NCBI GenBank assembly: GCA_038087875.1
Contig: CM075992.1
Span: 2,854,001-2,914,000, forward strand
Direction: 5' to 3'
Length of the DNA: 60,000 bases
From: Malacoraja senta
Taxonomy: Eukaryota
How positions within the stretch are numbered: the first letter of the stretch is position 1; every line of letters begins with the position of its first letter. Made by a program: the position numbers and the translations under genes. The notes under the pieces were generated by a model. The model had not been told where the DNA came from and did not search any database. It saw only the letters and a program-made list of their open reading frames with translations. Shown one piece after another: positions 2,032 through 39,059 of the stretch.

Positions 2032-2149
2032 TGCTTTATCAAAGGTTTCGGCTTGTTTCAAAGTCCGGGGGATACCCATCGATCATGAAGCCTTTGGTCT
2101 CCTGCAGGTTCTCCATCATCGCATCCTTCAGAAGATCCAATGTTATTCC
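2032..2149 (-). CDS. AK5: AK domain 2 exon: [27 protein letters not shown](R)[11 protein letters not shown], with an apparent +1 base at 2067-2071
   Basis: ttgtttcag acceptor, gtgagt donor; 118 bp as assembled, 117 bp and in frame if one G of the G5 run is removed. Confidence 0.88.
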
Positions 2150-5100
2150 CTGAAACAAGCAGAACCCAAAGTTAAAAGACCAAAACTAATTGCCAGATCG
2201 ATTAACAGCGGCATGGTGGCGCAGCGGTAGAGTTGTTGCCTCACAGCGCCGGAGACCTGGGTTCAATCCCGGCTACAGGTGCTGTCTGTACGGAGTTTGC
2301 ACGTTCTCCCCGTGACCCGCCTGGGTTTTCTCAGAGATCGACGGTTTCCTCCCACACTCCAAAGACGTACAGGTTTGTAGGATATTGGCTTGCTTTATGT
2401 GTAGATTGTTCCTAGTGTGTGTAGGATAGTGTTAATGTGCGGGGATCGCTGGTCGGCGCGGACTCGGTGGGCCGAACGGCCTGTTTCCGCGCTGTATCTC
2501 TAAAGTTCAAAAACCTGAGAAAACACTTTGAACGATGCCTGTTTATGTCGTGGCCAGAGATGTTGAGTAAGCTACGACTCTATTCCTTGGAGCGCAGGAG
2601 GATGAGGGGTGATCTTATAGAGGTGTACAAAAATCATGAGAGGAATAGATCGGGCAGAGTCTCTTGCCCAGAGTAGGGGAATCGAGGAGCAGAGGACATA
2701 GGTTCAAGGTGAAGAGGAAAAGATTTGGACACGCTGGAGGCAGGAAACATGTTCCCGATGTTGGGGGAGTCCAGAACCAGGGGCCGCAGTTTAAGAATAA
2801 GGGGTAAGCCATTTAGAACGGAGACGAGGAAACACTTTTTCTCACAGAGAGTGGTGAGTCTGTGGAATTCTCTGCCTCAGAGGGCGGTGGAGGCCGGTTC
2901 TCTGGATGCTTTCAAGAGAGAGCTAGATAGGGCTCTTAAAGATAGCGGAGTCAGGGGTTATGGGGAGAAGGCAGGAACGGGGTACTGATTGGGGATGATC
3001 AGCCATGATCACATTGAATGGCGGTGGTGCTGGCTTGAAGGGCCGAATGGCCTACTCCTGCACCTATTGTCTATTGTCAGTCCACGTAAGGAGATATTTA
3101 TAGCCTCAAATATACAGCCTCATCAAAGTTTGATAAAGCTGCAACATGACCTCCTGACTCTTGTACTCAGTGCCCCGATCGATGAAGGCAGGAGCAGCAC
3201 TCTCGCTACTTGAGGAGCCACTATCACAAGAACAAATTGATTAGTGCTGCATTGTCATGTTTGCTGTGGGAACATTTATTTTCTAAAAAAAAAGGACCAC
3301 TCTTTGGAAGTATCTCCTTGGCTAAACGTACTTTAGGTGTCCTGAAAGAAATGCAACCAGCAAAACAGAAATGTTTTGGAAGGAACTGTAGATGCTGGTT
3401 TACATCGAAGACAGACACAAAATGCTAGAGTAACTCAGCGGGACAGGCAGCATCTCTGAAGAGGAGGAATGGGTGGCGTTTCGGGTCAAGAGTCTTCTGC
3501 AGAAATGTCACTTATCCATGTTCTCCAGAGATGCTGCCTGACCTGCTGAGTTACTCCAGCACTTTGTGTCCTTTTTTTTTGTAAACCGGCATCTGCAGCT
3601 CCTTGTTTCAACACTTTAAAAAGACCTATTGCTGATTAACAGACTGTACTTGGCGTTGTAGCCTATAAACCCGCACGTCTTTGGAGTGTGGGAGGAAACC
3701 GGAGCACCTGGACGAACCCACGCGGTCACAGGGAGAACATGCAAACTCCACTCAGGCAGCCCCCTTGGTCAGGATTGAACCCGTTGATTCTGATTAGTAT
3801 GGGTGACTGGGGTTATGGGGAGAAGGCAAGAGAATGAGGTTGAGAGGGAAAGATTGAATGCGGAGTAGACTTGGCCAAAATAGCCTAATTCTGCTCCTGT
3901 GACTTCTGAACTTATATACCCGGGTCTCTGACATTGTGAGGCATCAGCTCTACCCGCTGCGCCACTGTGCCACCATGGTGGGTGAAGGAGATCACACGGA
4001 TTTAGTATCATCTATTATGGCACCAAATTTGAGCGCAGGTTTAAAAGGTATAAAGGTACAGAAGTGTGAAAACGCACGCCTCCAGATTCAAGGACAGTTT
4101 CTTCCCGGCTGTTATCAGGCAACTGAACCATCCTATCACAACCAGAGAGCAGTGCTGAACTACTATCCACCTCATTGGTGACCCTCGGACTGTCCTTGAT
4201 CAGACTTTGCTGGCTTTATCTTGCGCTAAATGTTATTCCCTTATCACGTGTCTGTACACTCTGAATGGCTCGATATTAATCATGTATTGTCTTTCCACTG
4301 ACTGGATAGCACGCAACAAAAGCTTTTCACTCTACCTCGGTACATGTGACAATAAACTAAACTGAACTGAAACTGAAACTGAGAGTAACTGGGCAATGGT
4401 ATAAGATTTGATCAGATATTTAGCACCTCCTCCAGTGTGGTGTCCCCCAGTACCTCTCCCCCTACCACATGAGGGTAGCGAGACACTGTCTCCCCAACAG
4501 TGCTGAACCCCCTCATCTCTCCCTCTCTCAGAGTGCAGAACTCCCACAGTGGTGCAGCTGGTAGAGACGCTGCCTCACAGCGCTAAAGACCCAGGTTCGA
4601 TTCTGACCTCGGATGCTGTCTGTCTGGAGTTTGCACGCTCTCTCTCTCTCTCCGTGACCGCGTGGGTTTCCTCCGGGTGCTCCGGTTTCCTCCCACGGGT
4701 GGAACTAAGGTGGGCAAGTGATGTGGGGGAGGGGAGGAGGGGGGACGGGTGGACGGAGGGGGACACCGGCTACTCACCAGCGGGACCAGACCTCCGTCTG
4801 CCATTATCTTCTTAATCTTTTTGCCTCGGTCCGTTTCGTTACTGATCTCCTTCCGCATCAGGTTGCCGGTGGACAGGTGTGTGAAGCCGTATCTCTCCAT
4901 CATTTTCACGCACTGGCTCCCTTTTCCTGACCCAGGGCCCCCTGTAACAGGAGAGCAGGTCACCGCAAGATTGGCCTCTCCATTCGTTTACAAGACCCTA
5001 AAACATGAAGCGACTCTGGTGTACCTGCTGCCTCTCAGGAGCTTCGCGGGACAATTAGCCAGTACAAAACTAACACTGAGGTAACCAAAGCTTGGTAAAG

Positions 5101-8100
5101 AGGTGGCTTAGTGAATGGATCCAGAGGTGTAGAGCATTAGCACTAGGATTAGATGTAGGATTAGATATGGGATTTAGTATAGGGTTAGGTTTAGGAATAC
5201 GGATAAAATCAGGTATAGGATTAGGCATAGGATTAGGTATAGGATTTGGTATAAGAATGGTTATAGGATTAGTTATAGGGTTACATTTAGTGTTAGGTAA
5301 GGATTAGGTAGAGAATTAGATATAGGATTAGGAAAAGGATAAGGTATAGGATTATGGTTAGGCATAGCATTATGTATAGTGTTAGGTATTGAATTGGGTA
5401 TAGGATCAGGTTTCGGATTAGGTATGGTATTAGTTTTGGAATTAAGTATAGGTTTAGATATAGGATTAGGTATAAAATAAGGTGTCGGGTTGAGGCTGGG
5501 ATTGGGTATGGGATTAAATACAGGATCAGGTGTAAAATTATATATGCAATTGGCTATAGGATTAGATACATGTTAGGTATTGGATTAACTATAGAATTTT
5601 TCATAACAGGAAGTAGAATTTGATGCCATAGAAACATAGAAATTAGGTGCAGGAGGAGGCTGTTTGGCCCTTCGAGCCAGCACCGGCCGCCCATGTCGAA
5701 TTAACTGCAGGATTTGGTACATGGTTGGGTGTAGGATAAAGTATAGGATAAGAGTAGGGAGGTCCAGGATTCGGGGGGAATTCCAGAGCCTGCACTGAGT
5801 GACCACAGCCCTAATTGGATGGGCTTAATGCAATGGTCTTGAATTACTTTGCGCCTGGAAGCTCATGACCAGGAAGGATCTCCCACCTTGAGAGACTGTC
5901 AGTATCCAATGGTCTGGTGAGGATCAGGGTCCAATTCCCTGTTCCAATTTCTGGGAGAAACATTGCGGGTTTAACGCTGAGATCTGGGAAACATCCCCGG
6001 AGATCTTGGATTGAAGAGATCGGGATTACAGCAACTGGGAGCAGTGTGATGGCGGAAGGGATTTGAAGACAAAGCCGGGAGTCTGAAAGCCAAGCCGTTG
6101 CTTAACTTTCAAACTTTCAGTGCCTCTACTTCCTGTGAAGTTTACGGAGAGTCGGTATGTCAAGGAGGACTCTCTCGAATTTCTACAGGTGCACAGTAGA
6201 GAGCATGCTGACCGGTTGCATCGTGGCTTGGTTCGGCAACTTGAGCGTCCAGGAGCGGAAAAGACTAAAAAAAATTGTAAACACTGCCCAGTCAATCATC
6301 GGCTCTGACCATCCCTACCATCGAGGGGATCTACCACAGTCGCTGCCTCAAAAAGGCTGGCAGCATCATCAATGACCCACACCATCCTGGCCACACACTC
6401 ATCTCCCTGCTACCTTCAGGTAGAAGGTACAGGAGCCTGAAATCTGCAACATCCAGGTTCAGGAATAGCTACTTCCCCACAGCCATCAGACTAATAAACT
6501 CAACAAACAAAAATCTGAACTTTAATAACCTATTGCACTTTATATGCTTATTTATGTGTGTGTATATATATATATTCATTGGTATATGGACACACTGATC
6601 TGTTTTGTATTTATTTATGCCTACTATATTCTGTGGTGCTGAAGCAAAGCAAGAATTTCATTGTCCTATCTGGGGCACATGACAATAAACTCTCTTGAAC
6701 TTGAACTCTTGAACTTGAACTTGAACTTGCTCTACAGGGGGGGTCAGAGTGAAGGTCAGAGAGCAGATGGACGGGGTGAGAGTCACAACACAGGCACCAG
6801 AGGCCTGGATGAGGGTGGGGAGGGTCATTGTATGTGTTGGAGAGACCTTCCCATAGAGAGCAGTATCTGACAGTACTCCACACCACCTTGGCTTTATCCT
6901 GAACCGGAGGAGGCCCGTCAGCCCTTGTGTCTGTGCTTGCCCCTTTGAAAGAACCAAAAGCAACTCCTTTCTCACAAGCCGAATATTGTTCCCCCTTTTT
7001 TTTAAATTTCTTCAATGAAAATTCTAAGACCAGTGGGAGAGTCTAGGACCAGAGGCCATCGGCTCGGAATTAAAGGATGTACCTTTAGAAAGATGAGGAG
7101 GAATTTCTTGTCAGCGGGTGGTGAATCTGTGGAATTCTTTGTCACAGACGGCTGTGGAGGCCAAGTCAGTGGATATTATTAAGACGGAGATCAACACATT
7201 CCTGATTCGCACGGGTGTCAGGGGTTATGGGGTAAAGGCAGGAGAATGGGGTTGAGAGGGAAAGATAGATCAGCCATGATTGAATGGCGGAGTAGACTCA
7301 ATGGGCCGAATGGCCTAGTAATGCTCTTAGAACTATTGAACTAATGAACCTTTAGGTAGCACTTGCTAGGTTTAAGTTTCGGCAACTTATAAGGTTTATA
7401 AATCTCCGTTTGCCCTCTGATTCTTTTGCCTCCCTTCCCTAAACAGTTTCTCCTTACTTACTCTTTGAAGCCCTTTATAATTCCCAACACCTCTATTACA
7501 TTCCCCTTCAGCTCTCTCCGCTGTAAGAAATGTGGGTCAGATACCACTCTGATGTACCATTACTAGTTGTGAGTTATTAATCCACAGGATGTTTAATCGC
7601 AGCAATTCAAAGCTTTGCCTGAAGAACACAGAGACACAAGCAGGCGTTTACTCACCAATCACAAAGATAATTTTGGTGGATCCCAGTTTCTCTGTAAAAT
7701 AAAGAACCAATATTTAGAACTTTGCAACTCAAACCTTTACCCAACCTGCTACAGCCAACCCTGTGAGCGGCACGATGGCGCAGCGGTAGAGCTGCTGCCT
7801 CACAGCGCCAGAGACCAGGGTTCGATCCTGACTATGGCTGCTGTCGGTACAGAGCTTGTACGCTCTCCCCGTGACCGCGTGGGTTTTCTCCGGGTGCTCC
7901 GGTTTCCTCCCAAAACCATGCAGGTTTGTAGGTTAATTGGCTTTGGTTATCCTTCACCCCTGCAGCCATTAGATTTTATAATTCGGACCGCTAGGCTGTA
8001 GGGGGATGCATTTTTGTATTAAAAAAAAAAAAATTAGTTGTTAATTATTGCTCTCAGGTAGTGTCCACATTGTATTATGTATTTTCTGTCTGTGTTCGTT

Positions 8101-8182
8101 TGAATGTGTGGGTTTGTTGGTTGGGGGCTTCTGGACATCTGAATTTCCCTGAGGGGATCAATAAAGTATTTATTATTATTAT

Positions 8183-8214
<32 letters not shown>

Positions 8215-11200
8215 TGTACATTGTCCCTACTGTTAGTTAGTGTACGGGGTGATCGCTGATCGGTGCAGACCCAAAGGATCTGTCATAGTGTTGTATCTCT
8301 ACACTAAACTAAACTAAACTATCCCTATGGTTTGATAATCTTTCTCCTACTGCCGTGATATGGAGAGGGGCTGGTGTGCTTAACGCTGTCGTTGACTTTG
8401 TTCTTCAGCAACATGTATCTACATACACATAGTGGGACAGCCAACAAAACAAGGCGGGAAACATGTCCCCGATGTTGGGGGGGAGTCCAGAACCAGGGGC
8501 CACACAGTTTAAGAATAAGGGGTACGCCATCTAGAACGGAGACGAAGAAACACTTTTTTCACACAGAGAGCGGTGAGTCTGTGGAATTCTCTGCCTCAGA
8601 GGGCGGTGGAGGCCGGTTCTCTGGATACTTTCAAGAGAGAGCTAGATAGGGTTCTTAAAGATAGGGGATATGGGGAGAGGGCAGGAACGGGGTACTGATT
8701 GGGGATGATCAGCCATGATCACATTGAATGGCGGTGCTGGCTCGAAGGGCCGAATGGCCTACTCCTGCACCCATTGTCTATTGTCTATTGTTTCAGGGTA
8801 GGGGCATAGGCCCCAGAATGACTTTTTCTGCCTCAAATCCAGCGTTACCTTTCACCTCGTCACATATCTGTACGGAGTCACCACTTTTGCAGTTCCCCAT
8901 TGCGCCCTTCTGGCTTGTGTCCGGGCTCCGGAGGACCCTCCTGTGCACACTGAGTATGATACCCGCTTCACCGCTTCACTTGGCCTGCCCTTTCCCCCAC
9001 CTCCCCTCCTTTCTTTACTGGTCAACCTACCATTATGACTTAACAGTGGGAGACCCAGACATCACAGCTACACATTGGCAGTGCTACAAGGCCGGACCAC
9101 ATCCATGCCACTGTGAAATTGGGCAGAGGCTGGCGACAGGCCGGGCGAGGCAGCCTGCCGCAGCCCCCCTGTGGCTGAATATGTCAGCTACTGTCTAGCA
9201 AGGAACTGCAGGTGCTGCTTTAAACTGAAAAAAGATAGACACAAAATGCTGGAGGAGCCATGGCCAGTCTGAAGAAGGGTCTCCACCCAAAACGTCACCC
9301 ATTCCTTCTCCCCAGAGATGCTGCTGCCTGTCCCGCTGAGTTACTCCAGCATATTTTGTGTCTATCTTAAGTCAGCTTACTTGTAGAAAACGTGGGTGAT
9401 GCCACAGACTCAGAGCAGGGCGGGAACGGGGTACTGACTGGGGATGATCAGCCATGATCACATTGAATGGCGGTGCTGCCACGAAGGGCCGAGTGGCCTA
9501 ATCCTGCACCTATTGTCTATTGTCTCTTGTCATTCATTGCAGCATCTAATGCAGACTGATACTACCCCTCCCCTCCCCCTCTGCCCCCACCCCCTTCCAC
9601 CTATATCCATCTCTCGGGCTTTACACTTCTCCTCATCTGACACCTTTTTGTCTCATTTTCACCTCCAGCCTTTGTCACTTTAGTTTAGAGATACAGTGCG
9701 GGAACAGGCCCTTCGGCCCACCGAGTCCGCACCGACCAGCGACCCCCCCGCACACTGACACCATCCTACACACACTGGGGATAATTCACATTTATACCAA
9801 GCTAATTAACCTACGAACCTGGGAGGAAACCGAAGATCTCGGAGAAAACCCACGCAGGTCACGGGGAGAAAAGTACAAACTCCGTACAGACAGCAGCCCG
9901 CGGTCAGGATCAAACCCGGGACTCTGGCGCTGTCAGGCAAGCAACTCTACCAGTTGCGCCACTGTGATGGCATAAACACCTGTGTCACAGGTGTAAATGA
10001 GTAGGAAGGAACTTCAGACGCTGGTTTACACCGACGACAGGCACAAAACGCCGGAGTAACTCAGCGGGACAGGCAGCATCTCTGGGGAGAAGGAATGGGT
10101 CGAGAGCAGAGTTGCTGCCTGGCCCGCTGAGTTACTGCAGCTTTTTGTGTCTTCAAAGTGCTCCATCCCCAGCTTCTCGAGGGCGACGATGAACGATGCA
10201 AACGCTGGCCTTTCCAATGTAAAACAAAGCCTCCATCTCCTCGTGGTCTCACCCCTTTCTTGTACAGACTGCATTCACACTGCGGACAAAGATGACAGAG
10301 AGACGACTCTTGCTCCAGCAACTCTGATTGTGAATGCTCATCCCACAATCTCCCCGCTCAACCTTGCCAGCTCATTCCTCAGTACAAGTGTGGATGGACC
10401 CTCTGCCTTTGCTTGCACCTCCTCTCCAGTACAAATGGGTTCACCTCATGTCTTGGCCTTGCTCTTTCTTGCTCTTGCTCTTGCTGGGCTTCAGCCGTGG
10501 ACTGTGTGGGTCCCTCGGCCACGTAATTCCCTTGGAAGCGTTGGACACATCTAGTGCCCACAGCGCTACTCATTGCCACTGGCCTCACCTTCAGCAATGA
10601 CGCCACAAAAGGGGCTGCTCCCCGATTATAATCTTCAAAGTCGGAGAGACATTGGGACGTCATAAAGAGGGGAAACATCAGTTCATAAGTTGTTATGGGA
10701 AACATGGAACTCGTGCGAACAGCTGATCCGTGGTCGGCGTGGACCACTGTGATGGGCTGAAGGGCCTGTTTCCATGCTGTGCGTCTGAATTAAACCAAAT
10801 TAAAATGCTTCCAAGATAGACACAACATGCTGGAGTGACTCGGGAGGCACCTCTGGAGAGAAGGAATGGGTAACGTCTCGGGTCGAGACCCTTCTTCAGA
10901 CTGCCAACGTGTAGTTAGTTGCCATTGCAGACGAACAAAATAATCTGATGTTACTACAGCAGAGAATAGGAGACATTACAGGAACATCCAAGTGACACAG
11001 ATGATGAAAGACTGTCAATGCCAACCAAGAAGGCACCGATCACTTTGAATTCACCAGGATAATGTTGGTTGGGACAGATTGGAATAAGGGAAAAATAAAC
11101 ATGCATCTCTGCAGCTCCTTCAACGTCCCCACCAGCACATTTCAAAGTGTTTTACAGGCATTAAGCTGCCTTTCCTTGCACAAAACATTATTCACATTAT

Positions 11201-17200: not shown

Positions 17201-20200
17201 AAAATGATGGAGAGACTCAGCGGGTGCAGCAGCATCTATGGAGCGAAGGAGATAGGCAACATTTCGGGCCGAAACCATTCCTCAGATTATTGGGGATGAT
17301 CAGCCATGATCACAATGAATGGCGGTGCTGGCTCGAAGGGCCGAATGGCCTCCTCCTGCACCTATTTTCTATTTTTCTAAGGATGCTGTGTGGCCCTCGT
17401 GTGTTGGGCCACACTATTGTCCCTCTACTGCTGCCCCACCCTGCCGCCCTATATATCTCTTAGAAACAGTGTTGAAGTTCTATTTCATTGTGAATTTAAA
17501 CTACTTCTTAAGTTTTGTAATTATTTGCAAAGATACCTAAAGAAAGAGACTTTATTCTCTATTCGACTCTTTTGTTCTCTTTCTTCAAAAATCTCTTTGT
17601 TCCCTTTTTTGTTTCTCTCTCTTTTTGTTAACATTTAGACAACTATAGATGGAACCAATACTGGATGGAATCAGATCTGAGTTCCACAATGGTCATGAGT
17701 AATTGGAGCTGATTTTGTAAATGTATGCATATTTCTAGTTCTGCAGATGAGATTCCCCAATAGAAATTGGGCACTTTAAATTGGCATTTTGCAAAGTTGA
17801 TGAGAGGAGGTTGTGTGTAAAATTATGAGAGACACAGCTAGAGTAGACAGACAGAACCTTTTTCCCAGTGGAAATGTCAAAGACTAGTGGGCATTGCTTT
17901 AAGTTTAGTTTAGTTTAGTTTAGACATAGGCCCACCGAGTTTGCAGCAACCAGCGATCTCCGTGCACTAGTTCCATTCTACACACATTAGGGACTGGTTA
18001 CAGAAGCCAATTAACCTACAAACCTGCACGTCTTTGGAGTGCGGGAGGAAACCGGAGCACGTTGTCACAGGGAGAACGTACAAACTCTGCACAGACAGCA
18101 CCCGTAGTCAGGATCGAACCCGGGTCTCTGGTGCTGTAAGGCAGCAACTCTACCGCTGCACCAGGTGAAAGGGACAAAGTTTAAAGGAGATGTATGGGGC
18201 AAGTTTTTTTACATAGAGTGTAATGTGTGCCTGGAACACGTTGCCAAGGGTGGTGGTGGAGGCAGATATGATAATAACATTTTAGAGAGTTTTAGATAGG
18301 CATGTAGATATGAAGAAAATTGAAGAATATGGATCATGTCTTGCAGAGGAGATTAGTTATACTTGGCATCCTGTTCAGCACAGACATTGTGGGCCGAAGG
18401 GCCTGTTCCTGTTCTATATTCTACATTCTACTTTGAGACTACTCAGAGAGAATCTAAAATATTATTTGCCTTGACAAGATATTTTCTTCTGATAAAGTTT
18501 AATTCTAATAAAGACTTGCTTTCACAAAGCTTCCTAATACTTATTTCCTAATAATTTTAGGAAGACAAAAAATGCCGGAGTAACTCAGCGGGACATGCAG
18601 CATCTCTGGAGAGAAGGAATGGGTGACGTTTCGGGTCGAGACCCTTCTTCAAACTGATACAAACTGATCTTCAAACTGATACAAATTTATGATAAAATAA
18701 TACTATTTTAGAGTGAGTAGACAGATAAATCTCTCAAAAAGGAATATTGAATTACCAGTTCTGAATGGAATAACCCAACCATAATTTGGAAAGGTTGATC
18801 GTATAATATATGCATCTGAGTGGATTAGTGATATTCATTTAAAATAATTAACAAATTATAAGACATCGCCTGATATTGAGCATGTGTTAATTAAGAAGCT
18901 TGATTAAATCTCACACAGTCTATCAGGCATGTGGTAATCTTTCTAATGATATGATAATAAGAACAGCTAATCATTTAAGTGTCGGAAGGAACTGCAGATG
19001 CTGGTTTAAACTGAAGATAGACACAAAATGCTGGAGTAAGTCAACGGGACAGGCAGCATCTCTGGAGAGAAGGAAAGGGTGACGTTTCGGGTTTGATGAT
19101 GGGTCTTGAAACTTCACCCATTCCTTTTCTCTAGAGGTGCTGCCTGGCCCGCTGAGTTTCTTCAGCATTTTGTGTCTGTCTTCCAAACATATTTCCCTCC
19201 TCTCCTCCATACTGCAAGAGAAGGCGTGATTCCAGCTCAAAGATAGATCAAGGATGAGACTCCATTCTCTGGGCAGAGATTAATTTAGTTTAGTTTAGAG
19301 ATACAGCGCGGAAACAGGCCCTTCGGCCCACCGGGTCCGCGCCGACCAGCGATCCCCGCACATTAACACTATCCTACACCCACTAGGGACAATTTTTTAC
19401 ATTTACCAAGCCAATTAACCTACAAACCTGTATGGAATGTGGGAGGAAACCGAAGATCTCGGGAGAAAACCCACGCAGGTCACGGGGAGAGCGTACAAAC
19501 TCCGTACAGACAGCACCCGTGGTCGGGATCGAACCCGGGTCTCCGGCGCTGTGAGGCAGTAACTCTACCGCTGCGCCACCGTGACTAATGGTGAAGGGAG
19601 GAGCGTGCACCCGTTACACTGTGGTGACAAGGCTGATGGTTTGCCCAGTGTGGAGTGAGTGGGGGTGTGTGTGGAGAACCTGCTGGGGACTGACCTGCTA
19701 GCGGCTCTTCGCCTGAAACTCCTTCCGCGGGCTGTAAAACAGACATAGAGAGAGTGCAGGAACACTCGTCAGTATTGACCACTCGGCCACCAAAGACCCA
19801 GCACTCAGAGTAGAGTGCAGTGAGCAACTGCAGATGCTGGTTTAATATAATATAATAGTAATTATAATAATATCTTTTATTGTCATTGCACAAAGGTGCA
19901 ATGAGATTTGGTACGCAGCTTCCATCCGATAGTCATAACTTAAACAGCTAATAACATTTAGATTTAGATACCCCGAGAAACATGATTTATTAAAAAAAAA
20001 GAACATTAAAACAGTAAAACAGTCTAAAGTGCAAATATGTCTGTGCCGGGTCGATGTGCGTGAACACAGTTCATGGGGCTGGGGGGGGGGGGGTGGGGGG
20101 GGGTGGGGGGAGGCACTCTGCAGAGCCGGTTCAGAGCAGCGACAGCTCTGGGGATGAAGCTGTTCCTGAGTCTGGAGGTGCGGGCGTAGAAGGCCTTGTA

Positions 20201-23200: not shown

Positions 23201-26200
23201 CTCTCACACACACCCACAGATAAACACTCTCACGCACACACACACTCTCGCACACACACCCACAGATAAACACTCTCACACACTCTCGCACACACTCTCC
23301 AACACTCTCACACCCACACCCACAGATAAACACTCTCACACACACACACACACACACTCTCACACACACACACCCACACACTCACACCCACACCCACAGA
23401 TAAACACTCTCACACACACACACACACACTCTCACACACACACACACACACTCTCACACACACACACACACACTCTCACACTCTCACACATACACCCACA
23501 GATAAACACTCTCACACACACACACACACACACTCTCACACACACACACACACACTCTCACACACACACACACACTCTCACACTCTCACACATACACCCA
23601 CAGATAAACACTCTCACACACACACACACACACTCTCACGCACACCCACAGTTAAACACACTCTCGCACGCACACACACACTCTCACACACACTCTCACG
23701 CACACCCACAGTTAAACACACTCTCGCACGCACACACACACTCTCACACACACACCCACAGATAAACACTCTCACGCACACACACTCACTCCCACACACT
23801 CTCACGCACACCCACAGTTAACCACACTCTCACACGCACTCCCACACACACTCTCACACTCACACATGCACACACTCTCACCTGCACACCCACACACACA
23901 GGTACACATTCACCCTCCCTCTCTCACACATGTATACACACACTCATGCACTCACACACACATTTTCACGCCCCCATGTATATAATACTCTCACACACAC
24001 ACAAACAAGTACATACACACATGCACACACATGTATATAATACTCTCACACATGCAAACATGTGCACATACTTTAACACACTCACGCACACATACAGAAG
24101 AATATACACACATATTCACACACACATGTACTCTTACTCTTTTTCACCCTCTACATTTCCCATTTTGTGTTTCTCTCTTTCACCCTCCCCCTCTCCGTAT
24201 CTCTTCTCTCTCTTTTTCTTTACCTCTCATATTCTTTCTCCCTCTCTTGCTCTCTCTCTCTCTCCCTCTTTCTCCCCATCTTCTCTCTCTGCTTTTCCCC
24301 CCTCCCCCACCCACCTTTATTTCTTTGCCACCCCCCCCCCCACCCTCGTTTCCCTGCCCCATTTTCCATCACTTTGTCCCTCGTTGTGAAATCCATCCAA
24401 ATATTTGGCTTGCATCTGATTTAGTTTCCATGGAAATATTGACAAAAGAAGTTGTGTCAAAAGAGGCCAACTCTGATTGTCTGCCTTCCGGGAGGGGTCC
24501 GCTGCATCACCTCAGCCCGTCAAACGTTGCACCTGGTTAAACAGAGAGCCTTTCCCAATTTTATTTCTGACCACAAATAAAGAAAATAACGCTCAAAGTA
24601 CACCTTAACATTGGTTGGCGATCGACACAAAATGCTGGAGTAACTCAGCGGGACAGGCAACATCTCTGAAGAGAAGGGATGGGTTGAGACCCTTCATCAA
24701 ACGCGAAATGTCACCTAATAATAATAATAATGATGATAATGGATTGGATTTATATAGCGCCTTTCTAATACCCAAGGCGCTTTACATCGCATTATTCATT
24801 CACTCCTCAGTCACACTCGGTGGTGGTGAGCTACTTCTGTAGCCACAGCTGCCCTGGGGCAGACTGACGGAAGCGTGGCTGCTAATCTGCGCCTACGGCC
24901 CCTCCGACCACCACCAATCACTCACACACATTCACACACATTCACACGCAGGCAAAGGTGGGTGAAGTGTCTTGCCCAAGGACACAACGACAGTATGCAC
25001 TCCAAGCGGGATTCGAACCGGCTACCTTCCGGTTGCCAGCCGAACACTTAGCCCATTGCGCCACCTGTTCCTTTTCTCCAGAGATGCTGCCTGACCCGTT
25101 CCGTTACTCCAGCATTTTGTGTCTGTCTTCGGTGTAAATCGGCATCTGCAGTTCCTTCCTACATTTTAGTTGAGTTTAGTTTAGTTTGGAGATACAGCGC
25201 GGAAACAGGCCCTTCGGCCCAACGGGTCCGCACCGACCAGCGATCCCCGCACACTAACACAACCCTACACACACCAGGGACAATTTACACCAGTACCAAG
25301 CCAATTAACCTACACGCCTGTACGTCTTTGGAGTGTGGGAGGAAACCGGAGATCTCGGAGAAAACCCTCGCAGGTCAAGGGGAGAACGTACAGACAGCAC
25401 CCGTAGTCGGGATCGAACCTGGGTCTCTGGCGCTGTAAGCTCTGTAAGGCAGTAACTCTACCGCTGTGCCACCGTGCATAATAGTGGTTGATTTCTCTCC
25501 AGTCTTTGCTTGCAGTTGTGTTTGGAGGTTCCAGGCCAGATATGGAGAGATGGGGAGACTATCAATGAGCTCGGAGATTCGTTGAGTGAAAGGGGACCTG
25601 AAACTATGGACCGGGATGCATGTAACCCCTTATTGGCATTGAAGGGCATCTTGGCCAGATAGTTTCATGGAGTCATGGAAGTCGTACAGCGTGCAAGCAG
25701 GCCCTTCAGCCCAACTTGCCCGCACCGGCCAACATGTCCCAGCTATCACGAGTCCATGGAAACCGATGACTATCAGCATCATTGGTCAGGCTCGCTAGAT
25801 GGAGAACGGGCAGAGCGGGTGGTGAGGACAGTCTGACAGGACTAATGGTGTTACCTTTTCCTCAGTATCTACGCTGGCTTCAGCTGCCCGAGGAGGAGCA
25901 CTCATGCTGGGACCTGCGGGGAGGGAAAAGGAAGGGTTAAACAAAATCTCCCTACTGACTGCTGCAAAACTCCAGTAAATATTCCACCCGGGATAATCTC
26001 CTGTCTGAATTTCCTGGACAGGTCATAGTCATAGAGTCACAGAGTGATACAGCGCGGAAACAGGTCCTTCGGCCCAACTTGCCCGCACTGGCCAACATAT
26101 CCCAGCTACACTAGTCCCACCTACCTGCGCTTGGTCCATATCCATCCAAACCTGTCCTATCCATGTACATGTCTAACTGTTTCTTAAACGTTGGGACAGT

Positions 26201-29200
26201 CCCAGCCACAACTACCTCCTCTGGCAGCTTGTTCCATACACCCACCACCCTTTGTGTGAAAAAGTTACCCCTAAGATTCCTATTAAATCTTTTCCATTTC
26301 ACCTTAAAACTATGTCCTCTGGTCTTCAATTCCCCTACTCTGGGCAAGAGACTCTGTGCATCTACCCGATCTATTCCTCTCATCATTTTATACAACTCTA
26401 TAAGATCACTCTATAAGACCATTGTGGCTAAAGGGATCAGGGGGTATGGAGAGAAAGCAGGTACAGGATACTGAGTTGGATGATCAGCCATGATCATATT
26501 GAATGGCAGTGCAGGCTCGAAGGGCCGAATGGCCTGCTCCTGCACCTATTTTTCTATGTTCTATGTTTCTATCACCCCTCATCCTCCTGCGCTCCAAGGA
26601 ATAGAGTCCCAGCCTACTCAACCTCTCCCTGTAGCTCAGACCCTCGAGTCCTGGCAACATCCTCATAAATCTACTCTGTACCCTTTCCAACTTGGACAAT
26701 AGACAATAGGTGCAGGAGTCAACCAGCACCGCCATTCACTGTGATCAACATCTTTCCTGTAAGGTGGTGCCCGGAACTGAACACAATACTTCTCCGAAGG
26801 TTACACATCCTCCACAGATCTGGTCAGACGGCACTGCAATTACGGATCGAAAGACCGGGATTAATTCCAAGTGTGAGGTTCAATTTGTGGCTGTGCCGAA
26901 TGCAGAATGCATGCAGCTAACAACTTAACACAAAAAGCGTTAACTGGAGGGCTAAAAATAGTACCCAGTTAGAATAAAATGTCAGAGCATGAGCGAGAAG
27001 TCTCTGGAGGCATGTTTTCTCCACACAGTGTGGAACTGCCAACATCTCTGGTGAAACCGAGCAGCCACCTTATCCCAGCGACACTGAGAAAAGATGGTGA
27101 ACACTGCCCAGCCCTTCACGGGTTCCGACCTCCCCACCATCGAAGGGATTGGCAAGGGTCGCTGCCTCGGAAAGGCAGCCGGCATCGTCAGAGACCCACG
27201 CCACCCTGCCCAGGCTCTCATTTCACCCCTGCCATCGGGAGGAAGGTACAGGAGCCTGAAATCTGTAACATTCAGGTTCAGGATGACCGCAGTCATCAGA
27301 GGCTGTTAAACACTCAAAGGTGAATGAATGAATGAATGAATGATACTTTATTGTCACAGTTGTATTCTCTGTTTTGCATAAGCAAGGTATGCAAAGAGTC
27401 GCTACATAAAGGGCACCAACACAGTTACAAAGTATCCACGCTGGGTCCCCCGTTGTTCTCCCCCCCCTCCCTCACTCTCCCCACCCCCACTCCACCCCTC
27501 AGGAGCATGCAGCCACCACTTGATGAGCAGCCCGTTTAGATACTCAACTCAGTTTGGGCCCTCCCACCCGCTCACTGCCCCACCCCCCCCCCCGGCCCAG
27601 TGGCCCTCACCTGCCGTGGCAGGTCCGCCCGCAGCGAGTTTCCCATCCACGGTCGCCCTGATGTCTGTGAACACCTCCACTTCCTCCCTGTCTCCGTCCA
27701 ACTGTGGGAGAGAAAGAAGTCACCATGGATTCAAAAGCTCTCTGCCCAACGCAGTGGGCTTGTTCTCGTTTGCATTGGCCTGTCTGCAGTTGAAGAGTGT
27801 GAGGGTTTGTGTAGTCGGATGGCAAGAGTAATGGCAGCAACTCTACCCGTTGCGCCGCCGTGCCACCCACCAGGTTCTCTCATCCCTGGAGCCCTGGTCT
27901 GGCTGGGTTTGGACGCAAAATGCTGGAGTAACTCAGCGGGACAGGCAGCGTCTCTGGAGAGAAGGAATGGGTGACGTTTCAATAGACAATAGACAATAGG
28001 TCCAGGAGTTGACCATTCGGCCCTTCGAGCCAGCACCGCCATTCAATGTGATCATGGCTGATCATCCCCAATCAGTACCCCGTTCCTGCCTTCTCCCCGT
28101 CCCCTGACTCTGCTATTTTTAAGAGCCCTATCTAGCTCTCTCTTGATAGCATCCAGAGAACCTGCCTCCACCGCCATCTGAGACAGAGAAGTTGAGACCC
28201 TCCTTCAGACTGGTATGTTTTTACTCCACCATCTGATAGTGAGGGGCACACTATTGGATCCCCACCCCCACACTCCGAGCTGCGCTGCCGTTTTTTCTGC
28301 CTGTCATTCTGCTTTAATTATGTAAAGGATACACCCACAGGATAATTGCCTCAATCACCCAGATCCTCACATTCACTGCTCTCAGCAGTAAGTGGAGCTC
28401 TAGGTGGAGAGTGTAAAAGCTGCTTCTCACTGTGACTCACTGACACCAACAGCAGCTTCCTGTCAGCCCTGTCCCTTGCTTCACTAACCAGGGGTTAAAC
28501 TCAACCGATACCAGTCTGTGGTGTTAAACCCAGCCAGTCTCCCTCCGACCTCTCTGTCCTGGGTCTCCTCCATGGCCAGAGTGAGCAACACCGGAAATTG
28601 GAGGAATAGCACCTCATATTCCGCTTGGGGAGTCTGCATCCTGGGGGCATGAACATTGAATTCTCCCAATTCTCCCAAAGTTAGCCCTTGCTGTCTCCTC
28701 CCCTTCCTCAGCCCTCGGGCTGTCTCCTCCCATCCCTCAGCCCTCGGGCTCCTCCTCCGCCTTTTTCCTTTCTTCTCCCCACCCGCCATCAGTCTGAAGA
28801 AGGGTTTCGGCCCGAAACGTTGCCTATTTCCTTCGCTCCATAGATGCTGCTGCACCCGCTGAGTTTCTCCAGCATTTTTGTGTACCTCATGACTTACTAA
28901 TGTTTTAATTGTGGCCGTCCGTCCGGGAGGATTATTTCGTTGAATCGTCTTTTACTAAAAATAATAAAAGACGAACAAAAACATGTTAATAAAAATAAAA
29001 GAATTTGTTCTACAAATATAGGATTCATTCAAATGGCCGCACTTAATGGCTTAGAAGGCCGCAGGCTTCATGGCCTTAAGGCCGCAGGTTCCCCACCCCT
29101 GAACTAAACCAATCCCAGTCAGTGTTGATTAACTAAACAAGTCTCCCAGTCAGTGGGACTTAGTTAACCAGGGCGGTATGGTGGACTAGCAGTAGAGTTG

Positions 29201-32200
29201 CTGCCTTACAGCGCCAGAGACCCGGGTTCAATCCTGACTACGGCTGCTGTCTGTACGAAGTTTGTTTGTTCTCCCCGTGACCTGCGTGGGTTTTCTCCGA
29301 GATCTTCCATTACCTCCTACACTCCAAAGACATACAGGTTTGTAGGTTAATTGGCTTGGTATGAATGTAAAAATGTGTGGGGATCGCTGGTCGGTGCGGG
29401 CTCGGTGGGCTGAAGGGCCTGTTTCCGCACTGTATCTCTAAACTACACTAAACAGCCTGAAACGAATCCCCATACACTCGCACTATCCTACACACTAGGG
29501 ACCGTTTACAATTTTTGCCAAAGGCAATTAACCTACAAACCTGTAGGTCTTTCAAATGTGGGCGGAAACCTGAGCCCCTGGGGAAAACCCACAAGGTCAC
29601 GGGGAGAACGTACAAACTCCGTACAGACAGCACCCGTGGTCAGGATCGAACCCGGGTCTCTGGCGCTGTGAGGCAGCAACTCTACCGCTGCGCCACCGTG
29701 CTGCCGTTACACAGGTATATGAGGCACCTACTATAATACCATTTGGACAGGTGCATGGATAAGAAAGGTTTAGAGGGATATGGGCCAAACGCGGGTAGGT
29801 GGGACCATTGTAGATGTGTGATCTCGGTCAGCGTTGGGCAAGTTGGGCTTGTTTCCAGCAGCAACTCTACCGCTGCGCCACCGTGCCACCCCTTCTACGC
29901 TGTCCTGCCAATCCCTGTCAGGTCAGGATAGGTGCTGCATGGGTTAGGTCGAGAGGTCAGATCCCTCTGTCAAAGTCCCATCAAATACTTCCTGGATTAC
30001 GACGGCACCGGTTAGTTAACAGATTGCAGCTTTCTTCACCATGGGTGAACAGGGGCTCTGCAAGTTGCCATGGTTACTGATTTGCTAAAGAAGCTTCTAT
30101 CACCATGGTGACAGTTCTCAAATTTATTCACTCAAAGTTGGTCCAAATGCTTGTGCTTCCAATTGTGGTATTTGTTATTGAGCTGTTGACGTCCTCCATT
30201 CCATGCTCCATAACTAAGGTCGTCGGAAACTTAGTTGCCAATGTCCAAACTCACTTCCCTCTTCACTCACCGACCCTTGCTCTTGTGACCCGCAGTCCTG
30301 CAATGCCTTGAATTTTAAAATTATCTTTCTATGTTATAAAATTGGAAATATGCAAAATTGCAGGGTCTGAAGGGTAAGAACAGGGAGTGTGTCCAACTGA
30401 ATCAAAGTGCAAGATATAGAAACAAGGTCTCGCAAATGTTTAAGAAGGAACTGCAGGTGCTGGGAAAATCGAAGGGAGACAAAAATGCTGGAGAGACTCA
30501 GCGGGTGAGGCAGCGTCTATGGAGCGAAGGAAATAGGCGACGTTTCGGGCCGAAGCCCTTCTTCAGACCTGCAAATGTCGGTTTACGCAAAAGGACACAG
30601 AGTGCTGGAGTAACTCAGCCAGTCAGGCAGCATCTCTGGAGAACATGGATAAGTGACGTTTCAGATCAGGAGGTCTGAAGAAGGGTCTCGAATCCTTGAC
30701 AAGGAGTGTAAGATAGTTGTCTAATAGTATATCATTCGCCGTGTATTAGGGTGGGTTCTGTTTTGTTTCTTACTGCACTGTATATGTACATATTATTTTA
30801 ATATTTGAATAAATATTTTTGATTAATTTAAAAAAAGAAGGGTCTCGACCCAAAACGTCACCTATCTGTGTTCCCCACAGATACTGCCTGATCCGCTGAG
30901 TTATCCCAGCACTTTGAATTGAAGTGCTAGTACAGATTAGATGGGCAGAGTGGTCACCTTGCTTCACGTTCCTAAGTGATAGGAGCAAAATTAGGCCATT
31001 CGGCCCATCAAGTGTACTCCGCCATTCAATCATGGCTGATCTATCTCTCCTAACACCCATTCTCCTGCCTTCTCCCCATAACCTCTGACACATGTGCTAA
31101 TCAACAATCTATCTATCTCTGCTTTTAAAATATCAATTTACTTGGCCTCCTGTGACAATAAATTCCACAGATTCACCACTCTCTGACTAAAGAAATTCCT
31201 TCTCATCTCCGTCCTAAAGGAACATCCTTTTATTCTGAGGCTTTGACTCTCCCACTGGTGGAAACATCCTCTCCACATCCACTTTGTCCAGGCCTTTCAC
31301 TATTCACTTTCCTGATGAGTGCGGGTGTCAGGGGTTACGGGGAGAAGGCAGGAGAATGGGGTTAGGAGGGAGAGATAGATCAGCCATGATTGAATGGTGG
31401 AGTAGGCTTGATGGGCCGAATGACCTAATTCTGCTCCTATCACTTGTGAACCATGGGGAAGAAGGTGTAGGAGCCTGACACTCAGACCACCAAACCTTGC
31501 GAGAAGTCCGTGGCCTGACTCACCGTGACGATGAGATGCTTCTCTTCGTAGTACTGGACCAATGGGACGGCGTTTTGCTTGAAGGTGGCGAGGCGGCGTT
31601 GGATGGCTTTGGGGTTGTTGTCGGGCCGGCCTTGTTCCGCTCTCTTCTCCAGTCTCTCCCTCAGCCGGGGGCTGGCGCAGGAGAGATAGATCACCACGTC
31701 CGGCACGCAGATCTGAGGGAAGGACAACCGCCAGAATCAGCACCACGTATCGGCACAATCTGTACAAAAAGCCTCGCCACAATTTTCCTGCTCAATTTTC
31801 TTCCTCCCCCCCCACCCCGGCAATTGACAGAGGCCCAATTAACCTTCAAACCCGCACGTCCTTGGGATCAAAGAACATAGAGCTTTCCTTGGGATGTGGA
31901 AGGAGATTTGGGCTGGTATTCACTGGAGTTTAGAAGGATGAGGGGGATTCTTATAGAAACATGTAAAATTATAAAAGGACTGGACAAGCTAGATGCAGGA
32001 AACATGTTCCCAATGTTGGGCGAGTCCAGAACCAGGGGCCACAGTCTTAGAATAAAGGGGGGGGGGGGGGTCATTTAAGACTGAGGTGAGAAAAAACTTT
32101 TTCACCCAGATAGTTGTGAATTTATGGAATTCCCTGCCACAGAGGGCAGTGGAGGCCAAGTCACTGGATGGATTTAAGAGAGAGTTAGATAGAGCTCTAG

Positions 32201-35200
32201 GGGCTAGTGGAGTCAAGGGATATGGGGTAGAAGGCAGGCACGGGTTATTGATAGGAGACGATCAGCCATGATCACAATGAATGGCGGTGCTGGCTCGAAG
32301 GGCCGAATGGCCTCCTCCTGCACCTATTTTCTATGTTTCTATGTTTCTATGAGAATCTGTGGAATTCATTGCCACAGAAGGCTGTGGAGACCAAGTCAAT
32401 GGATATTTTTAAGGCGGAGATCGAGCGATTCTTGATTAGTGTCGGGGTGTCAGGGGTTATGGGGAGAAGGCAGGAGAATGGGGTTAGGAGGGAGAGATAG
32501 ATCAGCCATGATTAATTGGCGGTGTAGACTTGATGGGCCGAATGGCCCAATTCTGCTCCTTGAACTTATGAAGGAGTGATGACTGCACCTGATCATCGAA
32601 GCAGATGGCTTGGGAAACCTCCCGTGGGAAGCCATCGATGACAAAGCCCTGGGCGTCCGGGTGCTGCATCAACTGCTGCTTAATCTCATTTATGGTTGTC
32701 TCCTGCGGAAGAAGGTGTGAGGAGTCAAACATCGCACTACCACAACTTTTAACAAACAATTAGACAGGTAGACACAAAAAGCTGGAGGAGCTCAACGGGA
32801 CAGGCAGCATCTCTGGGGAGAAGGAATAGGTGAGGTTTCCGTTCGAGATCCTTCTCGACCCGAAACTTCACCCATTCCTTCTCTCCAGAGATCTGCTGCC
32901 TGTCCCGCGGAGATACTCCAGCATTTTGTGTTTATCTTCGGTTTAAACCAGCATCTGCAGTTCCTTCCTACACAATTAGACTGGTAGCCACATGGTTAGG
33001 ATGGGCTTCGAGGGATGGGATGGTGGTGGAGGCAGATATAACAGTGGCGTTTAAGAAGCCTTTGGATATTTGGTATATGAAACGAGCTGCCAGAGGAGGT
33101 AGTTGAGGCAGAAAGTTTAGCAACGTTTAAAAAACATTTGGACAAGTGCATGGATAGGAAAGGTTTAGAGGGATAGGGGACAAAGCAGCCAGGCGGGACT
33201 CGTGAAGATAGGACATGTTGGACGGCGTGGGCAAGTTGGGCCGTTTCTGTGCTCTAAGACCTTCTTTAAAACCAAACATGAGGCTCAGTCCAAGTCCTTG
33301 TTTGACGACACTTCCCTCAAGAAAATTGGGATGTTTCTGCTACATTAGTGTTGCTATGGAATGCTATCAAATGAGATGGAGGAACTGAGTGAAATCCAGG
33401 TTAGCCGGGAAGTGGTGTTAGGTAAATTGAATGGATTAAAGGCCAATAAATCCCCAGGGCCAGTCAGGCTGCATCCCAGAGTACTTAAGGAAGTAGCCCC
33501 AGAAATAGTGGATGCATTAGTGATACTTTTTCAAAACTCTTTAGATTCTGGAGTAGTTCCTGAGGATTGGAGGGTAGCAAACGTAACCCCACTTTTTAAA
33601 AAGGGAGGGAGAGAGAAAACGGGGAATTACAGACCAGTTAGTCTAACGTCGGTAGTGGGGAAACTGCTAGAGTCAGTTATTAAAGATGGGATAGCAGCAC
33701 ATTTGGAAAGTGGTGAAATCATTGGACAAAGTCAGCATGGATTTACGAAAGGTAAATCGTGTCTGACGAATCTTATAGAATTTTTCGAGGATGTAACTAG
33801 TAGAGTGGATAAGGGAGAACCAGTGGATGTGTTATATCTGGACTTTCAGAAGGCTTTCGACAAGGTCCCACATAAGAGATTAGTATACAAACTTAAAGCA
33901 CACGGTATTGGGGGTTCAGTATTGATGTGGATAGAGAACTGGCTGGCAGACAGGAAGCAAAGAGTAGGAGTAAACGGGTCCTTTTCACAATGGCAGGCAG
34001 TGACTAGTGGGGTACCGCAAGGCTCAGTGCTGGGACCCCAGCTATTTACGATATATATTAATGATTTGGACGAGGGAATTGAATGCAACATCTCCAAGTT
34101 TGCGGATGACACAAAGCTGGGGGGCAGTGTTAGCTGTGAGGAGGATGCTCGGAGGCTGCAAGGTTACTTGGATAGGCTGGGTGAGTGGGCAAATGCATGG
34201 CAATGCAGTATAATGTGGATAAATATGAGGTTATCCACTTTGGTGGCAAAAACAGGAAAGTAGACTATTATCTGAATGGTGGCCGATTAGGAAAAGGGGA
34301 GATGCAACGAGACCTGGGTGTCATGGTACACCAGTCATTAAAAGTAGGCATGCAGGTGCAGCAGGCAGTGAAGAAGGCGAATGGTATGTTAGCATTCATA
34401 GCAAAAGGATTTGAGTATAGGAGCAGGGAGGTTCTACTGCAGTTGTACAGGGTCTTGGTGAGACCACACCAGGAGTATTGCGTACAGTTTTGGTCTCCTA
34501 ATCTGAGGAAAGACATTCTTGCCATAGAGGGAGTACAGAGAAGGTTCACCAGACTGATTCCTGGGATGTCAGGACTTTCATATGAAGAAAGACTGGATAG
34601 ACTCGGTTTGTACTCGCTAGAATTTAGAAGATTGAGGGGGGATCTTATAGAAACGTACAAAATTCTTAAGGGGTTGGACAGGCTAGATGCAGGAAGATTG
34701 TTCCCGATGTTGGGGAAGTCCAGAACAAGGGGTCACAGTTTAAGGATAAGGGGGAAATCTTTTAGGACCGAGATGAGGAAAACATTTTTCACACAGAGAG
34801 TGGTGAATCTGTGGAATTCTCTGCCACAGAAGGTAGTTGAGGCCAGTTCATTGGCTATATTTAAGAGGGAGTTAGATGTGGCCCTTGTGGCTAAAGGGAT
34901 CAGGGGGTATGGAGAGAAAGCAGGTACGTGATACTGAGTTGGATGATCAGCCATGATCACAATGAATGGCGGTGCAGGCTCAAAGGGCCGAATGGCCTAC
35001 TACTGCACCTATTTTCTATGTTTCTATGTTTCTATGTTTTTATGCTATGGAAACGGGGATTGTGGATGTCAAGCGAGAGGAGATTTGAGGCGCTGGTTTA
35101 GGTTTATTATTGTCACGTGTACCGAGGTACAGTGAAGAGCTTTTGTTTTTTTGCATTATTTCCAATTAAATCAGACAGTGCTCTATGTAGAAACAAGGAA

Positions 35201-38981: not shown

Positions 38982-39059
38982 CTGGGGGTGGAGGGGAGAC
39001 AGCGACACACGCAGTGAGAGCACAGTGAGCACCAAGTCACAGCCTGGGAGTGGTCAACC

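What the first reader, a model, noticed from the sequence alone, without database searches (positions are those of the whole stretch)
7656..8960. AK1beta-like myristoylated start exon hidden inside an AK5-type gene
Seen: in unique sequence 1.15 kb upstream of the domain-2 exon, gcaATG GGG AAC TGC AAA AGT... reads [17 protein letters not shown]. It ends in a phase-1 donor (AAG/gtaacg) that splices in frame to [13 protein letters not shown]. Established: MGxxxS is the N-myristoylation motif, a nearby Cys is often palmitoylated, and mammalian AK1beta uses a similar alternative exon (MGCC...) joined to EKLKK. Inference: an internal promoter makes a membrane-targeted single-domain kinase from the 3' half of an AK5-type gene.
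Basis: partly seen in the sequence, partly recalled or inferred. Interest (0 to 1): 0.72.

Follow-up and report, generated by a model that had tools for sequence, protein, structure and literature searches.

The report
Membrane-anchor start exon, skate adenylate kinase
Inside a two-domain adenylate kinase gene of a skate lies a short, conserved alternative start exon that probably makes a lipid-anchored one-domain enzyme, and comparison with sharks suggests that the textbook enzyme AK1 and its membrane form began as such internal products of a longer gene.

Summary
Observation confirmed. ATG 8900 to donor 8849 (- strand) encodes [17 protein letters not shown] and splices in frame over a 1157-nt intron to exon 7691-7656. 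It is not chance. The 17 residues are 17/17 identical in two catsharks, 15/17 in two stingrays and 16/17 in little skate, where NCBI models show them starting a one-domain isoform; in 4 of these 5 species a long isoform of the same gene was also retrieved. The host gene is not AK5 itself but a third paralogue (AK5-like). Coelacanth and caecilian members also start MGxC at the same junction. Unexpectedly, shark AK1 is itself modelled as a long two-domain gene with an internal AK1beta-type exon at that junction. Trees of both domains agree: AK1 | (AK5, AK5-like). Best reading: a myristoylated, probably palmitoylated, membrane adenylate kinase from an internal start, an architecture older than the vertebrate paralogues. 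Not shown: reads from this species, the promoter, acylation, and common descent of the two start exons (little sequence similarity beyond the motif). The isoform is already in database predictions; ten literature searches did not find the evolutionary reading.

The parts
8849..8900 (-). Coding part of the alternative start exon: [17 protein letters not shown] plus 1 nt, phase-1 donor
   Evidence: 17/17 identical to Scyliorhinus torazame XP_072346963.1 and S. canicula XP_038640982.1, 16/17 to Leucoraja XP_055520164.1, 15/17 to Hypanus XP_059848304.1 and Hemitrygon XP_072925506.1
8901..9191 (-). Unique sequence upstream of the ATG: presumed 5' UTR and internal promoter (inferred). 59% G+C over 8901-9200, no TATA match, two CCAAT matches, in-frame TGA at 8978-8976
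   Evidence: promoter function not tested
7692..8848 (-). 1157-nt intron of the short isoform; holds interspersed repeat copies (7764-7947, 8451-8794) and a TTA run
7656..7691 (-). 36-nt exon shared by long and short isoforms ([12 protein letters not shown]); first exon of kinase domain 2
4778..4941 (-). Domain-2 exon with the P-loop GGPGSGKG and the nucleotide-binding region
   Evidence: best PDB matches are AK5 (2bwj) and AK1 entries
2032..2149 (-). Next domain-2 exon; the reading frame shifts at a run of five C (2071-2067) in this assembly. Later exons were not found in the window
19695..19731 (-). Last linker exon of the long isoform; its phase-1 donor uses the same acceptor at 7691, so the start exon lies inside a 12-kb intron
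25855..38982 (-). Upstream exons of the long isoform (domain 1 and linker) at about 38982-38812, 37916-37743, 32702-32589, 31712-31521, 27701-27615 and 25917-25855; boundaries approximate
   Evidence: tblastn with skate proteins

Best explanation
The skate gene is a third vertebrate paralogue (AK5-like) of a two-domain adenylate kinase and has two starts. The upstream start gives a protein of about 550 aa (N-terminal module plus two kinase domains). A second start inside the intron before domain 2 gives a one-domain enzyme of about 208 aa, in which the linker is replaced by a 17-residue leader. After Met removal Gly2 would be myristoylated, and Cys4 (perhaps also Cys13) palmitoylated. That would fix the enzyme to the inner face of a membrane, where it interconverts 2 ADP and ATP + AMP next to pumps, channels or the cortical cytoskeleton, as reported for AK1beta. 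Shown: exon, frame, conservation, modelled isoform pairs in relatives, paralogy. Inferred: own promoter, acylation, location, expression in this species. Further inference (about 0.7): the long-plus-internal-acylated layout predates the split of AK1 from AK5/AK5-like; mammalian AK1 kept only the internal products and amniote AK5 lost the acylated start.
For: The leader is more conserved between this skate and a catshark (17/17) than the kinase core next to it (49/55); the long-form linker diverges freely. Long and short models share identical C-terminal runs of 191-232 aa in Leucoraja, Hypanus, Hemitrygon and S. torazame, and 192 aa in coelacanth (MGICVSS start). A separate GenBank model (GCB62112.1) uses the same exon. 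Among one-domain proteins retrieved, an acylation-type MG..C start occurs in 9 of 15 AK5-like, 20 of 67 AK1, 0 of 8 AK5 and 1 of 58 invertebrate-type sequences (148 of 175 examined passed the identity and length cut). In the 27 MG-C starts printed, Gly2, a Cys at 3-5 and a small residue at 6 are kept, and the vertebrate leaders join 12 residues before the P-loop. Horn shark and sevengill shark AK1 each have long (587/603 aa), MG-C (211 aa) and plain (194 aa) models on one contig. N-terminal and domain-2 trees both give AK1 | (AK5, AK5-like). AK1beta is myristoylated and mainly at the plasma membrane (PMC2680645, passages); its 50-bp leader works as a portable membrane tag (PMC2659440, passages).
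Against: All relatives' isoforms are computed models whose read support I could not see. Junction reads from this species were not obtained. This assembly has a frameshift in exon 2149-2032. Beyond the MG, AK5-like and AK1 leaders align barely better than shuffles: 5 of 18 pairs have p<0.05 uncorrected, best 0.015; shark against coelacanth AK5-like leaders also fails, so the test is insensitive. The domain-2 grouping of coelacanth and amphibian sequences with the shark gene has only 87/81 support, and placing the amphibian pair with AK1 is not rejected (p-AU 0.059). The long AK1 form was seen by name in only 2 species.
Confidence: 0.82

Rival explanations
1. The exon is real, but AK1 and AK5-like recruited acylation leaders independently; the likeness to AK1beta is convergence at a convenient phase-1 acceptor.
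For: MG-C motifs are short. The leaders show little similarity beyond the motif. The Cys is at position 4 in AK5-like and at 5 in the fish AK1 leaders. Several unnamed multi-domain kinases also start MGC. The same acceptor takes an unrelated repeat-like start exon in Leucoraja (XP_055520165.1).
Against: Same junction and same motif class in two paralogues, across sharks, coelacanth, sturgeon, bichir, amphibian and cattle. One origin before the duplication needs only one loss, in AK5. An unnamed invertebrate-type protein (P0188) has an MGC leader at the same spacing.
Confidence: 0.25
2. The coding segment is not the first exon. Its 5' UTR is spliced from a non-coding exon further upstream or from the long transcript, so there is no promoter at 8950-9200.
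For: No TATA match and only generic motifs upstream; AG dinucleotides lie upstream of the ATG; protein models say nothing on the 5' end.
Against: The only in-frame AG between the upstream stop and the ATG has 5 pyrimidines in 17. 290 nt of repeat-free sequence precede the ATG in a window that is 46% repeats.
Confidence: 0.15
3. There are two neighbouring genes, a 5' one-domain gene and a 3' AK1-like gene that starts at this exon; the long form is occasional read-through or model fusion.
For: S. canicula and caecilian gave only the short protein. Unnamed proteins P0329 and P0367 end after domain 1.
Against: Long models were retrieved for most species, and 16 of 21 gave no MGNCKS form. The linker exon has a phase-compatible donor. 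Human AK5 is an established two-domain protein (PMC11626602, passages). Unnamed invertebrate-type proteins carry the same N-terminal module plus several kinase domains.
Confidence: 0.08
4. The gene is decaying in this species, so the exon is a conserved relic without a product here.
For: Frameshift at the C run 2071-2067; two residues in the 36-nt exon (GS) differ from other skates (RV).
Against: A second frameshift in a G run breaks the unrelated angiopoietin-like gene near 44067-44069, which points to assembly error. Domain exons are 95-100% identical to Amblyraja, and the leader is unchanged.
Confidence: 0.06
5. Chance motif in an intron.
For: Short motif; donor of moderate strength (mismatches at +5 and +6 against the recalled consensus).
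Against: 17/17 identity with catsharks, E 2e-15, at the exact place; the only such site in the window.
Confidence: 0.01

Closest known systems
AK1beta (membrane isoform of adenylate kinase 1)
   Same: Alternative start exon with Gly2 and a nearby Cys, joined to (E/D)KLK 12 residues before the P-loop; one kinase domain of about 210 aa. Myristoylation and membrane location are reported for AK1beta (PMC2680645, passages).
   Different: Different gene: domain 2 groups with AK5, not AK1, and the two genes lie on different chromosome-scale contigs in 12 of 12 species. The leader sequence is unrelated beyond the motif. It carries a second Cys at 13. p53 induction was not tested.
Human AK5 and its 198-aa domain-2-only transcript (AK5p2)
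   Same: Two-domain gene that also yields a domain-2-only product (PMC11626602, passages); same domain layout (Pfam ADK twice).
   Different: 0 of 8 retrieved short AK5 proteins have an acylation-type start. The skate gene is a paralogue: coelacanth P0272 groups with it at 96/99, and grouping P0272 with AK5 is rejected (p-AU 0.004).
NCBI-predicted 'adenylate kinase isoenzyme 1-like' isoforms of elasmobranch 'isoenzyme 5-like' loci
   Same: The orthologous isoform itself (XP_072346963.1, XP_038640982.1, XP_055520164.1, XP_059848304.1, XP_072925506.1).
   Different: They are automatic predictions named after AK1; none of the ten literature searches returned a paper on them.
Plasmodium falciparum AK2 (N-myristoylated adenylate kinase)
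   Same: Acylated adenylate kinase (PMC2680645, passage; PMC4912828, PMC7884776 and PMC4409355, search listing only).
   Different: Not an alternative exon of a two-domain gene as far as seen; not compared by sequence here.

Membership tests
AK1beta-type acylated isoform (works like) | Alternative start exon joined in frame to the first kinase exon | tested here: met
   modelled in 5 relatives
AK1beta-type acylated isoform (works like) | N-myristoylation sequence (Gly2, small residue at 6; pattern recalled from PROSITE) with a nearby Cys | tested here: met
   pattern matched for the window and the five orthologues; Cys at 4 and 13
AK1beta-type acylated isoform (works like) | Actual myristoylation and membrane location | not testable with these tools
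   needs G2A/C4S reporters or acyl proteomics
AK1beta-type acylated isoform (works like) | Own promoter / spliced transcript in this species | tested here: inconclusive
   no read data obtained; upstream motifs generic
AK1beta proper (product of the AK1 gene) | Kinase domain belongs to the AK1 clade | tested here: not met
   falls with AK5 (95/93), outside AK1 (98/94); AK5-like plus long AK1 as one clade rejected, p-AU 0.008
AK5 orthologues | N-terminal module plus two ADK domains | tested here: met
   Pfam ADK twice in the skate orthologue P0127; exons of both domains in the window
AK5 orthologues | Groups with amniote AK5 in species-tree order | tested here: not met
   sister clade that includes a coelacanth protein; orthology alternative rejected. 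No shark AK5 proper was retrieved by name
Whole-genome-duplication paralogues AK1/AK5/AK5-like | Paralogous chromosome neighbourhoods | tested here: inconclusive
   different contigs in 12 of 12 species; RasGEF and angiopoietin-like genes lie in the window but beyond an assembly gap, and which angiopoietin-like paralogue it is remains open
Short-LID adenylate kinases (AK1/AK5 type) | P-loop [10 protein letters not shown](Y/F)PR and short R..DD LID motifs | tested here: met
   kept in shark and ray short isoforms (alignment); the window itself shows the P-loop and DGYP, while the LID exon lies outside it

The most novel reading that the evidence does not exclude
AK1, the classic muscle adenylate kinase, and its membrane form AK1beta are the surviving internal products of an AK5-type two-domain gene. 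Before the vertebrate paralogues split, one gene made a long form and an acylated one-domain form. Sharks keep both forms in two paralogues (AK1 and this AK5-like gene). Mammalian AK1 lost the 5' half, amniote AK5 lost the acylated start, and amphibians appear to keep AK5-like only as the acylated short form. This skate exon would then be a paralogue of the AK1beta exon and a witness of isoforms being shared out among duplicated genes.
Probability: 0.65. Interest if true: 0.68.

Novelty: new member of a known kind. Interest (0 to 1): 0.55.

Why it matters
It adds a second, strongly conserved membrane-anchored adenylate kinase to cartilaginous fishes, coelacanth and probably amphibians, which automatic names hide ('AK1-like' and 'AK5-like' for one gene). 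It also gives a testable origin for AK1 and AK1beta: not an ancient one-domain gene that gained a mouse-type variant, but the 3' half of a two-domain gene whose alternative starts were divided among duplicates. Identity of the whole 17-residue leader between skate and catshark suggests a function beyond lipid attachment, for example a binding partner or a second palmitoylation site at Cys13.

Tried and rejected
No whole genome is held for this window, so no genome-wide or synteny check was possible. Sequencing-run search with 8795-9240: no RNA holder listed (2 runs of unstated kind, one study); this is no evidence either way. No reads or contigs were laid, so the junction and the frameshift remain untested in this species. 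The first translation of the exon used a wrong start coordinate. Open frames at 10789-10382 and elsewhere in the 12-kb intron got no tblastn hit from the skate proteins and were not taken as exons. The alternative donor after codon 6 is used by none of the five orthologous models. Use as a coding cassette of the long form was rejected: stop 75 nt upstream and a weak acceptor. Leader-to-leader alignment against shuffles gave no clear homology signal. Matching short invertebrate-type proteins to long ones found no identical pair (best 80-81%, P0203/P0204 to P0338), so a long/short layout in invertebrates is only suggested. The first N-terminal tree left the three vertebrate groups unresolved and was redone with closer outgroups (LG+G4). 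The and trees carry long-branch warnings; three long rows were dropped. Literature: ten searches of open PubMed Central and bioRxiv found no paper on this paralogue or on an AK1/AK5 origin; subscription journals were not searched and no supplements were opened. Two look-ups of earlier scan findings returned nothing.
Full report
Observation. On the minus strand an ATG at 8900, in a strong context (G at -3 and +4), opens 17 codons, [17 protein letters not shown], plus one base, followed by AAG|GTAACG at 8849. After a 1157-nt intron the 36-nt exon 7691-7656 completes a Glu codon and continues [11 protein letters not shown]. With exon 4941-4778 the frame stays open through the P-loop. The stretch 8795-9191 has no self-match in a window that is 46% repeats. 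On both strands of the window this is the only ATG that gives MGxxx[S/T], a Cys at 3-6 and a phase-1 donor within 30 codons. Unspliced, the frame stops after 35 codons, and an in-frame TGA lies 75 nt upstream. The only in-frame AG between that stop and the ATG has a poor pyrimidine tract. The segment is therefore a start exon, not a cassette.

Host gene. A search with the P-loop exon returned elasmobranch 'adenylate kinase 5-like' proteins at 83-96% identity, the best from a skate. tblastn with skate proteins placed exons of domain 1 and the linker from 38982 to 19695, and of domain 2 at 7691, 4941 and 2149. The linker exon 19731-19695 ends in phase 1 and uses the same acceptor at 7691, so the start exon sits near the end of a 12-kb intron. 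The first 82 or so codons of the long form were not found; a gap of 200 N lies at 40065-40264. Exon 2149-2032 has a frameshift at a C run. A similar one in a G run breaks the unrelated angiopoietin-like gene near 44067, so assembly error is the likely cause (inference).

Conservation. NCBI models that begin with this leader exist for Scyliorhinus torazame and S. canicula (17/17), Leucoraja erinacea (16/17), Hypanus sabinus and Hemitrygon akajei (15/17). That is 5 of the 21 shark and ray species for which a protein of this gene was retrieved. The other 16 lack such a model, and their DNA could not be checked. In 4 of 4 species with both forms retrieved, the short and long proteins lie on one contig, have consecutive accessions and share an identical C-terminal run that starts exactly at EKL. 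A separate GenBank model uses the same exon but skips the 36-nt exon (P0270). Skate and catshark agree at 17/17 in the leader, against 10/12 and 49/55 in the next two exons, while the linker of the long form diverges. These are computed models; I could not see their read support, and no reads from this species were obtained.

Which gene. In trees of the N-terminal half, the elasmobranch proteins and a coelacanth protein (P0272) form one clade (99/99, 96/99), sister to AK5. Grouping the coelacanth protein with AK5 is rejected (p-AU 0.004), as is grouping this clade with long AK1 (p-AU 0.008). The domain-2 trees agree on AK1 | (AK5, AK5-like) (100/96 including invertebrates on the AK1 side; 95/93). 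The gene is thus a third paralogue. Its coelacanth member has a 205-aa form starting MGICVSS that shares 192 C-terminal residues with the long form. A caecilian protein (XP_029440614.1) and an unnamed relative (P0442) start MGNCN and join at EKLK. Their place in the clade is only moderately supported (87/81), and a place with AK1 is not rejected (p-AU 0.059).

Relation to AK1beta. AK1beta is described as a p53-inducible, myristoylated, mainly plasma-membrane product of the AK1 gene (PMC2680645, passages; the primary papers were seen only as reference entries). Its 50-bp leader has been used as a membrane tag (PMC2659440, passages). AK1beta-type starts were retrieved for sharks, rays, chimaera, sturgeon, paddlefish, bichir and coelacanth, and inside a cattle model. 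The unexpected result is that in horn shark and sevengill shark the AK1 locus is modelled with three isoforms on one contig: long (587 and 603 aa; two ADK domains shown for the 587-aa protein), MG-C (211 aa) and plain AK1 (194 aa), whose Met lies at the end of the long form's linker. An unnamed 560-aa protein has the same layout, and two unnamed proteins of that type end after domain 1. Human AK5 also has a 198-aa transcript with domain 2 only (PMC11626602, passages), but 0 of 8 short AK5 proteins retrieved have an acylation-type start, against 9 of 15 for AK5-like, 20 of 67 for AK1 and 1 of 58 for invertebrate-type proteins (148 of 175 examined passed the cut). AK1 and AK5-like lie on different chromosome-scale contigs in 12 of 12 species; in two more species AK1 is on a tiny scaffold.

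Mechanism. Most likely an internal start yields a one-domain kinase of about 208 aa. From established knowledge of N-myristoyltransferase and palmitoyltransferases (recalled), Met removal exposes Gly2 for myristate, and Cys4 can add palmitate for stable membrane binding. The pattern is met here and in all five orthologues, which also keep Cys13. The enzyme would buffer ADP/ATP and generate AMP signals under the membrane, while the long form serves another site through its N-terminal module (inference). Shown: exon, frame, conservation, isoform pairs in relatives, paralogy. Inferred: promoter, expression here, acylation, location.

Against and limits. Common descent of the two start exons rests on position, motif class and the gene trees. 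Beyond MG the leaders align hardly better than shuffles: 5 of 18 pairs have p<0.05 uncorrected, and even shark against coelacanth AK5-like fails. Several unnamed multi-domain kinases start MGC, so convergence is possible. The long AK1 form was seen by name in two species only. Synteny is unresolved: RasGEF and angiopoietin-like exons lie in the window but beyond the gap, and the fibrinogen exon scores higher with ANGPTL2 than with ANGPTL6. A 2017 survey did not find angptl6 in two cartilaginous fishes (PMC5237311, passages).

Novelty and verdict. The isoform is already present in automatic database models, and its working principle is that of AK1beta, so it is a new member of a known kind. It is neither AK1beta nor a product of AK5 itself. 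Ten searches of open PubMed Central and bioRxiv found no description of the paralogue or of AK1 arising from a two-domain gene; subscription journals and supplements were not seen. Two look-ups of earlier scan findings were empty. Interest 0.55. The reading that AK1 and AK1beta are the retained internal products of an AK5-type gene has a probability of about 0.65 and would deserve 0.68.

Noticed in passing
window 2071-2067 (-) and about 44067-44069 (+): Single-base frameshifts in homopolymer runs in two unrelated genes (the kinase exon and the first angiopoietin-like exon); probably assembly errors.
   Followed up: partly
window 43606-52940 (+), with RasGEF exons at about 59219-59097 and 57855-57724 (-): An angiopoietin-like gene of the ANGPTL1/2/6 group lies opposite a RasGEF gene (RALGPS-type nesting, recalled). 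It may be the ANGPTL6 paralogue that a 2017 survey did not find in cartilaginous fishes, but the PDB comparison favours ANGPTL2, so this is open.
   Followed up: partly
window 40065-40264: The 200-N gap must hide the first exons of the long kinase form and probably the 3' part of the RasGEF gene; adjacency across it is unverified.
   Followed up: partly
P0274 and P0298 (Heterodontus XP_067868365.1, Heptranchias XP_067825950.1): Shark AK1 loci are modelled with a long two-domain isoform that databases name 'AK5-like'.
   Followed up: yes
P0329, P0367 (unnamed): Proteins of the long-AK1 type that end after domain 1; possible 5' halves of a split AK1 locus in other vertebrates.
   Followed up: partly
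P0185 (Rhinatrema XP_029440614.1): The caecilian MGNCN protein has a changed P-loop (GGPGSGRN) and a long branch; it may have altered or lost kinase activity.
   Followed up: no
P0123 (Leucoraja XP_055520165.1): Another start exon modelled at the same acceptor resembles the translation of the abundant interspersed repeat of this window, suggesting an exonised repeat.
   Followed up: no
P0153 (Hemitrygon, 197 aa): A diverged second copy of AK5-like domain 2 on another contig, with a deletion near the LID; possibly a retro- or pseudogene.
   Followed up: no
P0321, P0360, P0378, P0396, P0401, P0412, P0424, P0427, P0436, P0437 (unnamed): Several multi-domain adenylate kinases of unknown origin begin with MGC, so dual-acylation leaders recur widely in this family.
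   Followed up: no
window 35500-37750, 21400-24100, 5144-5598: Long tandem or low-complexity arrays in the kinase introns, one starting right at the donor of exon 37916-37743.
   Followed up: no
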